This document shows, one piece after another, positions 32,174-34,378 of a stretch of DNA of 64,000 nucleotides (position 1 is the first letter of the stretch; each line of letters opens with the position of its first letter). Source of the stretch: an uncultured Rhodobacteraceae bacterium (GTDB lineage: Bacteria > Pseudomonadota > Alphaproteobacteria > Rhodobacterales > Rhodobacteraceae); the NCBI GenBank assembly GCA_943787985.1, contig CALSOO010000011.1:34444-98443 (forward strand), read 5' to 3'. A model generated the notes under the pieces. The model was not told the origin of the DNA and ran no database searches. It was given only the letters and a program-made list of their open reading frames with translations. A program made the position numbers and the translations under genes.

Positions 32174-34378
32174 CTAGGCTGCTGCATCAATAACTTCAAC
32201 ATGATCTGACAGTTGGTTGATTTCAGAATCAATTTTTGCTAGAGTTTCGCGGACCTTTCGAATTGCATTCGTTCCAGCATCAACAGTAGCGGCATTTTTT
32301 GATATGATTTCATTAATATCCGCAGAAGATTTTCCAACACGGACGGATAGCTCTTGGACCTGATCGGCAACAGCGCCGAACGCTCTCCCATGCTGGCCCG
32401 CTCTTGAAGCTTCTATCGTTGCATTGAGCGCAAGAATGTTTATCTTCGCCGCAATATCTTCAATCATTTTGACAATGTTTAGCGCTTCGTTAGAGGTATT
32501 TTGAATATCACTCAACGCGTCATCGGCATCTTCAGCGGTCATTCGACTTTCATTTGTCATCCGTTTCATCGACAATGTTGATTTTGCTTGCGTTTCGCTA
32601 AAGTTGTCCACGCTTCGATTGAAGTCATGCGACATACCCGCAAATTTCCCTAAATCGGAGGTTTCCATCCGATACCGCAGATCGCCAGACGCCAAACGTT
32701 TTAGAGCGTTTTCCATGTCATCCGTAACACTATCCACCACATCGAATAGCCGGTTTACACCTTCGCACGCTGTCGACAACATTCGGCTTGCCCCTTTCGG
32801 AGCATTTATACGATCGTGAAAAATACCTTTTACAGCATTTTCGATCATGGAATTGATTTGTTCGACAAGAAGTTCATCGACAAACTTTCGCTCTTCCAGC
32901 TCAGCCATTTTACGCTGGCTTTCCCTTTGGTTTTTTTGGTCTTCTGCAGCCATGCGTAGGGTCAGTTGATTGAATAACATAGACAATTCTCCAGACTCAT
33001 CCCCCTGCTCCACTTTTATCAACTCACCTGGCTTGGCATCATTCTCCAACATGCGGACAAGCATTTGCTGCAAGTGACCAGTGCCAAGCGTTTGACCGTG
33101 CTCCGCCGTATTCAAACCATCAAACTCGTCTTTTTCAGCCACTCTGAGCGGAACGAATTTATTTATAATTTTCAGACCTATGAATGACACGCCAAAACTC
33201 CAGGCAAAGACCAACAAAACGCCGCCGGTCTGTACCGCAATTTGCATTGCGCGTGAGGTCGCCAATAGTGAATCCGCCGGCGCCAAAATACCAACAAGAA
33301 TTGTCCCTAGGGCACCTGAAAAACCATGCACACCGATTGCTCCGACCACATCGTCAACTTTCCAAGCATGTAATAATAGGTAGTTGAAATATTGTGTGGC
33401 CATTCCACCGATGAAGCCAACTAAAGCTGCCGCTTGAATTCCGAACACGTCTGGACCAGCAGTCACACAAACCAGCCCCCCAAGTAGCCCGTTGATTACT
33501 CTATCAACTTTTAACTTTCGCCCATCAACAACGACGCTGTACAGCAATCCTCCAATACCACCAAAAACCGCTGCAAAAACAGTATTTGTGATGATTGTTG
33601 GCACCACATCACTGAGAGCAAGTGCCGAACCCCCATTGAAGCCCAGCCAACCTACCAATAAAATTAAAGCGCCAGCAGCTGAAATGACCGGATTGTGCCC
33701 GGAAATGTCAAGCACCTCACCATTTTTACCATAGCGCCCGATCCGAGGGCCAATGACCATAGCCGCGGCGAGGGCAACCCAAGCTCCCACTCCGTGAACA
33801 ACAGTTGATCCGGCAAAGTCCATAAATCCTAAATTACCCAAAATGGGTGCGTTTTCCGTTTGAAGCGCCGCTCCCCAAGCCCAATGGCCAACGACCGGAT
33901 ATATCAAGGTGCCAATAAAAACAGCTGCCAGCGTATATCCCCAAAAAGAACATCTTTCGGCAATGACCCCTGAGACAATTGTAGCCGCTGTACCGCAGAA
34001 CATTGCTTGAAATGTAAAGAATAACAGGGTGTTACCATCCATCTCATCCGGAAGAATGTATGCACCGCTGGCGCCAAACCATCCACCGACGGAGACGCCA
34101 AACATCAAACTAAACCCTATAAACCAATAGCCCGCAAGTGAAACAACAAAATCAGTTAGATTTTTTTGGGCAACGTTAATCGTGGTTTTTGATCTAACAA
34201 ATCCACATTCCAAAAGCAGGAATCCGATTTGCATGAAGGCAACAAGAGCTATGGCAACCAAAATCCACGAATGGTCAATTCGATTGGCATTGGATGCGAC
34301 AGTATCTGCCATTAGAGCTGAAGAAGTTAAGACATAAACAGCGCACACAGTTGCGCCACGGGTCAAGGCTTTCGTCAT
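32174..34378 (-). CDS. ammonium transporter (Amt) domain fused to methyl-accepting chemotaxis signalling domain
   Basis: Start ATG 34378 (the ORF start at 34426 is TTG). The N-terminal ~440 aa are an Amt channel with twin-His motifs ([26 protein letters not shown]). The C-terminal ~290 aa hold a HAMP-like linker and the MCP hairpin tip [37 protein letters not shown]. Confidence 0.85.
   Translation of the reverse strand: [734 protein letters not shown]

What the first reader, a model, noticed from the sequence alone, without database searches (positions are those of the whole stretch)
32174..34378. Ammonium-transporter channel fused to a chemoreceptor signalling domain (Amt::MCP), IS-flanked and AT-rich
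In this 735-aa ORF the first ~440 aa are a complete Amt/AmtB-type channel with twin-His motifs ([26 protein letters not shown]). Next come a coiled-coil/HAMP-like linker ([32 protein letters not shown]) and an MCP signalling domain with the invariant hairpin tip ([37 protein letters not shown]). The usual periplasmic sensor of a chemoreceptor is therefore replaced by an ammonium channel, which suggests an ammonium transceptor signalling to CheA/CheW. Amt domains fused to histidine-kinase or GGDEF outputs are known as ammonium sensors, but I am not aware of a characterised Amt-MCP. The trimer (Amt) versus dimer (MCP) stoichiometry is itself a puzzle. The gene is visibly AT-richer than the flanking DNA and is bracketed by IS ends, so it is probably acquired cargo.
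Basis: partly seen in the sequence, partly recalled or inferred. Interest (0 to 1): 0.65.

Follow-up and report, generated by a model that had tools for sequence, protein, structure and literature searches.

The report
Ammonium-sensor channel fused to minimal chemoreceptor
This marine bacterium carries an imported gene that joins an ammonium-sensing membrane channel to a stripped-down chemotaxis-receptor tip; this design is common in sequence databases, I found no paper describing it, and it is a good candidate for the receptor bacteria use to swim towards ammonium.

Summary
A 734-aa ORF on the minus strand (32174-34378) joins a complete Amt domain to an MCP signalling domain. It is not an assembly artefact.

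The Amt half belongs to the sensor-type "ammonium receptor" clade. Its best structural and sequence matches are Sd-Amt1 and Ks-Amt5, and the published N1/N2 signature is intact.

The linker is a first HAMP, a coiled coil, then an Aer2-like di-HAMP.

The MCP half is unusual. Its hairpin arms are only about 72 residues (about 20 heptads). The whole methylation/adaptation region is missing and there are no methylation motifs. This is a conserved, derived state in a 14-member clade (48-90% identity), not an IS truncation.

Amt-MCP fusions are widespread: all 120 top hits carry both domains, across several phyla. I found no paper describing one.

The gene is horizontally acquired single-gene cargo: 46.6% GC against 58%, bracketed by IS ends, with homology to an IS-free relative that stops at the CDS.

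Best reading: an ammonium chemoreceptor that does not adapt by methylation. Coupling to CheA/CheW is inferred, not shown. This is a new variant of a known kind.

The parts
32174..34378 (-). Complete Amt-MCP coding sequence (734 aa plus stop at 32174-32176)
   Evidence: ORF list, translation, identical protein on 9 independent contigs, and one short-read contig spanning it with no differences.
34307..34378 (-). Probable N-terminal signal peptide (aa 1-24, [24 protein letters not shown])
   Evidence: Read directly from the sequence. Inferred by analogy with E. coli AmtB, which has a cleaved signal peptide (own knowledge). No predictor was run.
33089..34276 (-). Amt (ammonium transporter-fold) membrane domain, aa 35-430, of the sensor type
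   Evidence: Pfam PF00909 at 3e-97. Best PDB sequence hits are Sd-Amt1 at 5.6e-85 and Ks-Amt5 at 8.5e-79, against about 1e-34 to 1e-38 for AmtB and Af-Amt1. AF2 pLDDT is above 90. Foldseek TM is 0.94-0.95 to 8QJ3/8QJ4/6EU6.
33971..34231 (-). N1/N2 ammonium-binding signature QX6EX15NX2DFX55TX2S (aa 50-136: Q50, E57, N73, D76, F77, T133, S136)
   Evidence: Regex match to the signature published for ammonium receptors. In 63 Amt-MCP proteins Q, N, D and T are invariant, and E and S are each conserved in 62 of 63.
32945..33088 (-). First HAMP-like unit directly after the last TM helix (aa 431-478; conserved GDExxELxxLFNxL)
   Evidence: AF2 helices at 434-445 and 461 onward. G459, D460, E461 and N470 are invariant across the family. 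The position matches the HAMP of Sd-Amt1. No Pfam hit above threshold in this protein.
32867..32944 (-). Coiled-coil stalk (aa 479-504)
   Evidence: Part of a continuous AF2 helix at 461-516. Charged heptad-like sequence.
32603..32866 (-). Aer2-like di-HAMP unit (aa 505-592)
   Evidence: phmmer hit to P. aeruginosa Aer2 (3VOL) residues 142-223, E=1.3e-3. Pfam HAMP_2 at 539-592, E=1.2e-3. HAMP_2 or HAMP is precomputed on several homologues.
32177..32602 (-). Minimal MCP signalling hairpin (aa 593-734), tip at aa 660-662, arms about 60-72 residues, no methylation region
   Evidence: Pfam MCPsignal at 73 bits, profile positions 12-150 of 172. Alignment to Tsr stops near residue 463. AF2 helices at 600-659 and 661-733. 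Arm lengths measured across the family. Symmetric deletion relative to long relatives. No methylation motifs.
32339..32461 (-). Conserved hairpin tip (aa 640-680, [41 protein letters not shown]), the expected CheW/CheA and trimer contact region
   Evidence: Many tip columns are invariant or nearly so across 63 family members. Residue-level alignment to Tsr 370-410.
34379..34455 (-). AT-rich (about 29% GC) upstream region, presumed to hold the promoter
   Evidence: Composition. No sigma-70-like site was found in it, and site counts across the scanned region were not clearly above the shuffles. Homology to the IS-free relative ends 11 nt upstream of the ATG.
30883..32124 (+). IS element (HTH_29/rve transposase, IS481-like) with 32-nt terminal inverted repeats, ending 49 bp from the gene's stop. 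The transposase reading frame is split into three ORFs in the window.
   Evidence: Inverted repeat I2. Pfam hits on the ORFs. An intact 344-aa version exists in other assemblies. No target-site duplication is visible.
34456..34469 (.). Remnant of a second, inverted terminal repeat of the same IS type, cut off by the IS1380-type element
   Evidence: A 14-nt perfect inverted match (I8). The 14-mer occurs only twice in 64 kb, with a chance expectation of 0.01.
34470..36140 (+). IS1380-family element (449-aa DDE_Tnp_1_4 transposase) with 21-nt inverted repeats
   Evidence: Inverted repeat I4. Pfam at 4.7e-146. Read depth and contig breaks at 34471-34473.

Best explanation
The gene most likely encodes an ammonium chemoreceptor built on a sensor-type Amt.

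Proposed mechanism:
1. The protein is exported N-terminus-out. Like every studied Amt, it forms a trimeric 11-helix channel-like module in the inner membrane.
2. Periplasmic NH4+ enters through the conserved Phe gate and twin-His pore. It is then held at two internal sites (N1/N2: Q50, E57, N73, D76, T133, S136) near the cytoplasmic end and is not released, as in the solved receptors Ks-Amt5 and Sd-Amt1.
3. Ligand occupancy shifts the last transmembrane helix. This drives a first HAMP unit, a coiled coil, an Aer2-like di-HAMP, and finally a very short (about 20-heptad) MCP hairpin.
4. The conserved hairpin tip docks to CheW/CheA and changes kinase output, which biases swimming.
5. The methylation bundle is absent, so the receptor cannot adapt through CheR/CheB on its own.

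Status of each step:
- Shown here: domain content, sensor-clade membership, the N1/N2 signature, the hairpin geometry, the absence of the methylation region, the conservation of the short form, and transcription in situ.
- Inferred: ammonium binding without transport, CheA/CheW coupling, and a behavioural output.

In this genome, probably a Tateyamaria-like roseobacter, the gene is single-gene cargo imported from a lower-GC lineage by IS activity.
For: - Both domains score above the curated Pfam cut-offs.
- The Amt module is far closer to the two solved ammonium receptors than to true transporters, by sequence (5.6e-85 and 8.5e-79 against about 1e-34 to 1e-38) and by fold (TM 0.94-0.95, rmsd 1.5-1.9 A).
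- The published receptor signature matches at aa 50-136. Its ligands, the twin-His and the Phe gate are invariant or nearly so in 63 Amt-MCPs.
- The Amt-then-HAMP layout matches Sd-Amt1. The di-HAMP resembles that of Aer2.
- The tip sequence aligns to Tsr 370-410 and keeps N376-N381, E385, R388, G390, G393, R394 and F396. The tip columns are the most conserved cytoplasmic columns.
- The short hairpin is conserved in 14 relatives at 48-90% identity, in IS-free and unrelated genomic contexts. These form one clade on an Amt-only tree, nested among long forms. This indicates purifying selection on a working protein.
- One long-form relative lies 5.4 kb from a cheA-cheW-cheY-cheB cluster.
- Metatranscriptome contigs at 97-100% identity cover both halves of the gene.
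Against: - No CheA or CheW gene is present in the 64-kb window or within 10 kb of any short-clade homologue. Whether the host has a Che system at all is unknown.
- The hairpin lacks the entire adaptation region and has no methylation motif. It is shorter than the 24-heptad class, the shortest I know of (24H confirmed as a class). Whether it can enter receptor arrays is therefore uncertain.
- Some tip positions differ from Tsr: F373 becomes A, and E391 becomes Q.
- The outer-vestibule Trp (AmtB W148, Sd-Amt1 W153) is Ile here and aliphatic or Phe in nearly all of the short clade. Ligand recruitment may therefore differ.
- The N1/N2 signature is also found in real transporters such as plant AMT1, so it does not prove sensor-only behaviour.
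- An Amt trimer must somehow feed a dimeric HAMP/MCP module.
- The gene is IS-flanked cargo and could be idle in this host.
Confidence: 0.6

Rival explanations
1. It is a bifunctional transceptor. The Amt module really conducts ammonium, as plant AMT1 proteins carrying the same N1/N2-type residues do. The C-terminal module then reports transport flux, or regulates the pore, instead of acting as a pure ligand-binding receptor.
For: All pore residues needed for conduction are intact: twin-His H195/H351, Phe gate F127/F247, D187 and S251. Pfluger et al. place characterised transporters (At-AMT1;1-3, Le-AMT1;1) in the same signature cluster and propose dual function for them.
Against: The closest solved relatives, Ks-Amt5 and Sd-Amt1, do not complete translocation, and the query is 38-41% identical to them. 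No glnK/PII gene lies next to this gene or its homologues, unlike typical assimilatory amt genes (own knowledge, and for S. denitrificans amt2-glnK2).
Confidence: 0.2
2. The MCP tip does not feed flagellar chemotaxis. It might couple to an alternative Che-like pathway (for example one controlling gene expression, c-di-GMP or type IV pili). It might also act only as a non-adapting modulator inside arrays formed by other receptors.
For: There is no adaptation region and no methylation sites. Strict methylation motifs are rare even in long-form Amt-MCPs, at 11-15%. Short 24H receptors in Vibrio cholerae are 'outliers' whose pathway assignment is unclear. The linker resembles that of Aer2, which in Pseudomonas signals through a non-motility Che2 system (own knowledge).
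Against: Tip conservation is typical of array-forming receptors. The only che cluster found near a family member is a standard cheA-cheW-cheY-cheB set. This rival differs from the best explanation only in its output.
Confidence: 0.13
3. In this particular genome the gene is inert passenger DNA. It was carried in by IS activity and is not used, because the host lacks matching partners.
For: The GC is foreign: 46.6% (GC3 43%) against 58% for the host. IS ends lie on both sides with no target-site duplication. Homology to the IS-free relative is limited to the CDS. No promoter stands out above chance.
Against: The ORF is intact and identical in all 6 samples shown, whereas the neighbouring IS transposase frames are broken. 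Metatranscriptome contigs cover both halves of the gene, though DNA carry-over cannot be excluded.
Confidence: 0.06
4. The ORF is an assembly chimera, or an MCP truncated by the adjacent IS.
For: The gene is flanked by multi-copy IS elements, where assemblies often break. The Pfam MCPsignal match stops short of the model's end.
Against: An uninterrupted short-read contig spans the whole gene at even depth. Independent assemblies give an identical protein. GC3 is equal in both halves. Fourteen homologues in IS-free contexts end at the same position. The stop codon and the last residues are shared with the IS-free relative.
Confidence: 0.01

Closest known systems
Sd-Amt1 of Shewanella denitrificans (Amt-HAMP-GGDEF ammonium receptor; PDB 8QJ3/8QJ4; PMC11152129)
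   Same: It is the best sequence and fold match for the Amt module (5.6e-85; TM 0.94; 40-41% identity). The N1/N2 ligand set is the same. The Phe gate and twin-His are the same. A HAMP unit follows directly after the last TM helix. It has the same mismatch between a trimeric sensor and a dimeric transducer.
   Different: Its output is a diguanylate cyclase, not an MCP hairpin, and it has a single HAMP instead of HAMP, coiled coil and di-HAMP. Sd-Amt1 keeps the outer-vestibule Trp (W153), which is Ile179 here.
Ks-Amt5 of 'Ca. Kuenenia stuttgartiensis' (Amt-histidine kinase ammonium sensor; PDB 6EU6; PMC5764959)
   Same: It is the second-best match (8.5e-79; TM 0.95; rmsd 1.5 A). It has the N1/N2 site and a C-terminally fused cytoplasmic transducer. 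It binds NH4+ without completing transport.
   Different: Its output is a histidine kinase, and it comes from an anammox bacterium. Thr occupies the F/T position of the signature, where this protein has Phe.
Aer2-type poly-HAMP chemoreceptors (P. aeruginosa Aer2, PDB 3VOL; Vibrio Aer2, NF041847)
   Same: The di-HAMP unit just upstream of the signalling hairpin is similar (E=1.3e-3). The hairpin gives its best NCBIfam MCP hit to the Vibrio Aer2 model (5e-24).
   Different: Aer2 is a soluble PAS-haem receptor with a full-length signalling domain (36-heptad by my recollection). This protein is membrane-bound through Amt and has about 20 heptads.
E. coli Tsr/Tar (36-heptad methyl-accepting chemoreceptors; PDB 1QU7, 8C5V)
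   Same: The hairpin tip is conserved, and the alignment covers Tsr residues about 320-463.
   Different: There is no periplasmic four-helix-bundle sensor. There are no methylation helices: the Tsr sites at 297, 304, 311, 493 and 502 fall outside the retained region. There is no glycine hinge and no C-terminal NWETF tether.
24H-class short chemoreceptors (for example McpA-like receptors; PMC7534058, PMC4742279)
   Same: They have short signalling domains, are often encoded as orphans, and their pathway assignment is uncertain.
   Different: A 24H receptor has 12 heptads (about 84 residues) per arm, against about 72 here. The nearest relatives of this hairpin are long-form Amt-MCPs, not 24H receptors. 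The class HMMs could not be run.

Membership tests
Amt/Mep/Rh ammonium transporter family (PF00909) | Domain match above the curated threshold over the full domain length | tested here: met
   326 bits against a 23.2-bit cut-off, profile positions 2-397 of 399.
Amt/Mep/Rh ammonium transporter family (PF00909) | 11-TM Amt fold | tested here: met
   AF2 pLDDT above 90 over aa 40-420. Foldseek TM 0.89-0.95 to Amt structures.
Amt/Mep/Rh ammonium transporter family (PF00909) | Twin-His pair, Phe gate and the AmtB D160 equivalent | tested here: met
   H195/H351, F127/F247 and D187 are present and invariant in 63 family members.
Amt/Mep/Rh ammonium transporter family (PF00909) | Outer-vestibule Trp (AmtB W148) at the NH4+ recruitment site | tested here: not met
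   This position is Ile179 here. It is L, F, I or V in 14 of 15 short-clade sequences, and W in 30 of 63 of the wider family.
Amt/Mep/Rh ammonium transporter family (PF00909) | Actual ammonium conduction | not testable with these tools
   This needs uptake assays or electrophysiology.
Ammonium receptors (AmR; sensor Amts such as Ks-Amt5 and Sd-Amt1) | N1/N2 signature QX6EX15NX2D[F/T]X54-60TX2[S/T] | tested here: met
   Regex match at aa 50-136. The signature is taken from PMC11152129.
Ammonium receptors (AmR; sensor Amts such as Ks-Amt5 and Sd-Amt1) | C-terminally fused cytoplasmic transducer module | tested here: met
   A HAMP array plus an MCPsignal domain at aa 431-734.
Ammonium receptors (AmR; sensor Amts such as Ks-Amt5 and Sd-Amt1) | Closer to solved receptors than to assimilatory transporters | tested here: met
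   E-values of 5.6e-85 and 8.5e-79 against 1.5e-38 and about 1e-34. The ranking by fold is the same.
Ammonium receptors (AmR; sensor Amts such as Ks-Amt5 and Sd-Amt1) | NH4+ binding without complete translocation, and ligand-dependent activation of the transducer | not testable with these tools
   This needs biochemistry or structures with and without NH4+.
Methyl-accepting chemotaxis proteins (MCP) | MCPsignal domain above the curated threshold | tested here: met
   73 bits against a 34.6-bit cut-off. PDB hits to Tsr at 8e-16.
Methyl-accepting chemotaxis proteins (MCP) | Conserved hairpin tip (kinase-control, CheW/CheA-binding region) | tested here: met
   The tip motif [21 protein letters not shown] aligns to Tsr 376-396. 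The tip columns are the most conserved cytoplasmic columns.
Methyl-accepting chemotaxis proteins (MCP) | Antiparallel helical hairpin belonging to a named heptad class (24H or longer) | tested here: inconclusive
   The hairpin is predicted at 600-659 and 661-733. The arms are about 72 residues, or about 20 heptads, which is shorter than 24H. The class HMMs were not available.
Methyl-accepting chemotaxis proteins (MCP) | Methylation helices carrying [ASTG][ASTG]xx[EQ][EQ]xx[ASTG][ASTG] sites | tested here: not met
   The region corresponding to the Tsr methylation sites is absent. There are no strict or loose motif matches.
Methyl-accepting chemotaxis proteins (MCP) | HAMP domain between the membrane and the signalling domain | tested here: inconclusive
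   HAMP_2 scores 19 bits, below the 24.3-bit cut-off. The Aer2 di-HAMP match has E=1.3e-3. A conserved GDExxELxxLFN motif and AF2 helices are present. HAMP hits are precomputed on homologues.
Methyl-accepting chemotaxis proteins (MCP) | Functional coupling to CheA/CheW | not testable with these tools
   No che genes lie in the window or near short-clade homologues. One long-form relative lies 5.4 kb from a che cluster.
IS-borne cargo / composite-transposon-like island | The same IS type at both ends, in inverted orientation | tested here: inconclusive
   One full copy sits at 30883-32124, and a 14-nt perfect remnant of its end sits at 34456-34469, cut by the IS1380-type element.
IS-borne cargo / composite-transposon-like island | Target-site duplication at the outer ends | tested here: not met
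   No matching direct repeats flank either IS.
IS-borne cargo / composite-transposon-like island | Foreign composition, with homology to relatives limited to the cargo | tested here: met
   GC is 0.466 against 0.584. blastn homology to the IS-free relative covers only 32174-34389.

The most novel reading that the evidence does not exclude
The short clade may define a new, minimal class of chemoreceptor signalling module. It has about 20 heptads, shorter than the 24H class, and was made by a symmetric deletion of the whole adaptation bundle. It sits on a long HAMP/coiled-coil/di-HAMP stalk beneath a trimeric Amt sensor. If it enters receptor arrays, it would be a dedicated, methylation-independent ammonium chemoreceptor. 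Its 3-fold sensor and 2-fold hairpin could be reconciled by pairing hairpins between neighbouring Amt trimers, so that the receptor itself would template a lattice.
Probability: 0.15. Interest if true: 0.8.

Novelty: new variant of a known kind. Interest (0 to 1): 0.55.

Why it matters
Ammonium is a central nutrient in the sea, yet I found no paper describing a dedicated ammonium chemoreceptor. As recently as 2026 the literature treats the anammox sensor Ks-Amt5 as essentially the only physically validated Amt sensor (PMC12918730).

A widespread Amt-MCP family would supply the missing receptor, and cultured carriers exist in which to test it. It would also extend the 'repurposed transporter as receptor' principle from kinase and cyclase outputs to chemotaxis.

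The short clade adds a natural experiment on how little of the MCP hairpin is needed for kinase control, and on how a trimeric sensor drives a dimeric signalling module.

For genome annotation, these genes should not be counted as ammonium uptake capacity.

Tried and rejected
- **Assembly chimera: rejected**.
- **IS-truncated MCP: rejected.** Fourteen homologues in IS-free contexts end at the same place, and the stop codon is shared with the IS-free relative.
- **The 15-nt match between the gene's 3' end and the IS sub-terminal sequence is not an IS scar.** The IS-free relatives carry 14 of the 15 nt natively.
- **Search for che genes** in the window and in about 95 fetched loci, with CheA, CheW and CheB probes. 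Only L098 had them; the other hits were receiver or ATPase domains.
- **Conserved gene neighbourhood in the short clade:** none found.
- **Literature searches for an Amt-MCP:** five searches, plus term searches inside both Amt-sensor papers. Nothing was found. Subscription journals are not covered.
- **Word-indexed protein search with the hairpin alone:** only fragments of the same gene came back.
- **Raw 2026 Illumina runs:** they held almost no reads for this locus.
- **Promoter and terminator scan:** site counts were not clearly above the shuffles, and no promoter-like site lay upstream of the gene.
- **Methylation-motif comparison of long and short forms:** it did not discriminate between them, because long forms also rarely match.
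Full report
**1. What is there**

A single ORF lies on the minus strand from 34378 (ATG) to 32174 (stop) and encodes 734 aa. An upstream TTG would add 16 residues, but the nearest homologues are 735 aa, so the ATG is the likely start.

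Pfam finds Ammonium_transp at aa 38-430 (3e-97) and MCPsignal at aa 609-733 (3.4e-20). Both are well above their curated cut-offs. It also finds a sub-threshold HAMP_2 at aa 539-592. NCBIfam agrees and gives MCP hits only over the tip region.

**2. It is not an artefact**

- The identical protein is on 9 contigs; the 6 places shown come from 6 marine samples and include long contigs, a SPAdes contig and a Logan contig. Every contig long enough to show the flanks has the same flanking genes.
- In one DNA run, a single 2,414-bp contig covers 32087-34500 with no differences at depth 5.3. The IS sequences on each side sit at depths of 15-40 and are where contigs break.
- GC3 is 0.428 in the Amt half and 0.426 in the rest.
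- Metatranscriptome contigs at 97-100% identity cover pieces of both halves at similar depth. No single piece crosses nt 33089.

**3. The Amt half is a sensor-type Amt**

Against all PDB sequences, the best hits are Sd-Amt1 (8QJ3, 5.6e-85) and Ks-Amt5 (6EU6, 8.5e-79). Af-Amt1 scores 1.5e-38 and E. coli AmtB about 1e-34. The AF2 model has pLDDT above 90 over the membrane domain. It superimposes best on the same two receptors, with TM 0.94-0.95 and rmsd 1.5-1.9 A.

Pfluger et al. 2024 (PMC11152129) showed that these receptors hold two NH4+ ions at internal N1/N2 sites. They proposed the signature QX6EX15NX2D[F/T]X54-60TX2[S/T]. The window protein matches it at aa 50-136.

In 63 aligned Amt-MCP proteins, Q50, N73, D76 and T133 are invariant, and E57 and S136 are each conserved in 62 of 63. 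The twin-His (H195/H351), the Phe gate (F127/F247), D187 and S251 are invariant.

There is one departure. The outer-vestibule Trp (Sd-Amt1 W153, AmtB W148) is Ile179 here. It is L, F, I or V in 14 of 15 short-clade sequences and Trp in about half of the wider family.

The same paper notes that some signature-bearing proteins are true transporters. Sensor-only behaviour is therefore an inference.

**4. The linker**

AF2 predicts helices at 434-445, 461-516, 532-563 and 578-586.

- The first pair, together with the invariant GDExxELxxLFN motif, looks like a HAMP unit directly after the last TM helix, as in Sd-Amt1.
- Residues 505-588 match the di-HAMP of P. aeruginosa Aer2 (3VOL, E=1.3e-3).

The layout is therefore Amt, HAMP, coiled coil, di-HAMP, then hairpin.

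**5. The MCP half is a minimal hairpin**

The alignment to Tsr covers only about residues 320-463, and the protein ends there. The Pfam match stops at model position 150 of 172.

I measured tip-to-C-terminus distances in 121 family members:
- The window protein and its 13 closest relatives plus P0018 have 69-80 residues.
- All the others have about 130-180, and a few have about 250.

In the alignment, the nearest long relatives share the same linker. Relative to them, the short clade lacks about 59 residues straight after the last HAMP and about 63 residues at the C-terminus. This is a symmetric deletion of both arms. It leaves about 72 residues, or about 20 heptads, per hairpin. AF2 gives helices at 600-659 and 661-733.

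The Tsr methylation sites (297, 304, 311, 493, 502; own knowledge) all lie more than 80 residues from the tip, outside what is retained. The window protein has no strict or loose methylation-consensus motif and no C-terminal pentapeptide.

The tip itself is well conserved.

On a neighbour-joining tree of the Amt domain alone, the 14 core short proteins form one clade nested among long forms (no support values were computed). In an exhaustive search with the hairpin, the 148 nearest representatives outside its own cluster were all ordinary MCPs. Every clearly full-length one had at least 100 residues after the tip. The 24-heptad class is the shortest class I know of (own knowledge). The class HMMs could not be run.

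**6. Distribution and context**

The fusion is common. There were 7,394 hits below 1e-5, and all 120 listed carry both Pfam domains. The named sources include roseobacters, Phaeovulum, Cohaesibacter, Methylococcales, Granulosicoccus and Bradymonadia.

A genome scan found full-length matches in Terasakiella pusilla, Roseibium aestuarii, Methylobacterium, Sphingobium, Leptospira perolatii, Salibacterium qingdaonense, Orenia metallireducens and a planctomycete.

The genes are orphans. There is no conserved neighbourhood and no che genes near short-clade members. One long form lies 5.4 kb from a cheA-cheW-cheY-cheB cluster.

I found no paper that mentions an Amt-MCP.

**7. Acquisition**

- The gene has 46.6% GC (GC3 43%), against 58.4% for the rest of the window.
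- A neighbouring DctP is at least 90% identical to one from Tateyamaria sp. Alg231-49, so the host is probably a roseobacter.
- An 84%-identical relative sits in a genome of about 50-52% GC, with no IS nearby. DNA homology to it covers only 32174-34389. Other short-clade genes match their hosts' GC.
- On one side lies a 1,242-bp IS with an HTH_29/rve transposase and 32-nt inverted repeats (30883-32124). On the other side, a 14-nt perfect inverted copy of that IS's end (34456-34469; chance expectation 0.01) directly abuts an IS1380-type element (34470-36140).
- No target-site duplications are visible.

This fits a single gene imported between two inverted IS copies, one of which was later destroyed.

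**8. Interpretation**

The best reading is an ammonium receptor of the Ks-Amt5/Sd-Amt1 kind. Its output is a minimal chemoreceptor tip that cannot be methylated. It presumably controls CheA through CheW, without its own adaptation.

It was already described for Sd-Amt1, where two of the three HAMP units are proposed to pair.

The main uncertainties are these:
- whether the Amt module transports;
- whether so short a hairpin joins receptor arrays;
- whether this host has a Che system at all.

Noticed in passing
window 39170-44997 (minus strand): There is a lambda-like prophage head module: a ClpP-like protease (39170-40321), a lambda-family portal (40257-41780) and a GpA terminase (about 42997-44997). 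The IS cluster seems to cut it off at about 38.6-38.9 kb, and no capsid gene follows the protease.
   Followed up: partly
window 36598-38622: The IS elements are nested. An IS3-family element (37390-38622, 31-nt inverted repeats, orfA/orfB) interrupts another HTH/rve transposase gene, of which only the 205-aa N-terminal part (36598-37215, minus strand) remains.
   Followed up: partly
window 36141-36600: An AT-rich stretch (44% GC) lies just beyond the IS1380-type element. It holds two small ORFs with no Pfam match (36160-36411, hydrophobic, 83 aa; 36415-36906, 163 aa). Its composition resembles that of the Amt-MCP gene, so it may belong to the same imported DNA.
   Followed up: partly
window 30971-32014: The transposase of the IS at 30883-32124 is split into three ORFs in the window, but it is an intact 344-aa protein in two other assemblies of the same locus (L001, L003). 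This reflects either long-read indel errors or real decay.
   Followed up: no
window 32202-32216 and 32088-32102: The gene's 3' end (coding for NQLSDH) shares an exact 15-nt run, CCAACTGTCAGATCA, in inverted orientation, with the sub-terminal sequence of the adjacent IS. The IS-free relatives carry 14 of the 15 nt natively, so it is gene sequence. The IS may have targeted DNA that resembles its own end.
   Followed up: partly
window 20894-30886: This is a catabolic cluster of host-like GC: a GntR regulator, a GFO/IDH/MocA oxidoreductase, a TRAP transporter (DctPQM), AP_endonuc_2/glyoxalase-type enzymes and an aldehyde dehydrogenase. It forms the chromosomal side of the island.
   Followed up: no
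proteins P0163, P0172-P0174, P0210, P0277: Some MCP-signal proteins of about 720-880 aa have their best hairpin match near the N-terminus (residues about 100-330), with about 590-600 residues after it and 2-4 matched stretches. This is an unusual layout, possibly with several signalling domains.
   Followed up: no
loci L023-L095: Many sensor-clade Amt genes match the query only up to about aa 430-540. These are therefore Amt modules with other or no C-terminal outputs. They occur in Cyanobacteria, Desulfobacterales, Nitrospirae, Verrucomicrobia, Planctomycetes and one archaeal MAG.
   Followed up: no
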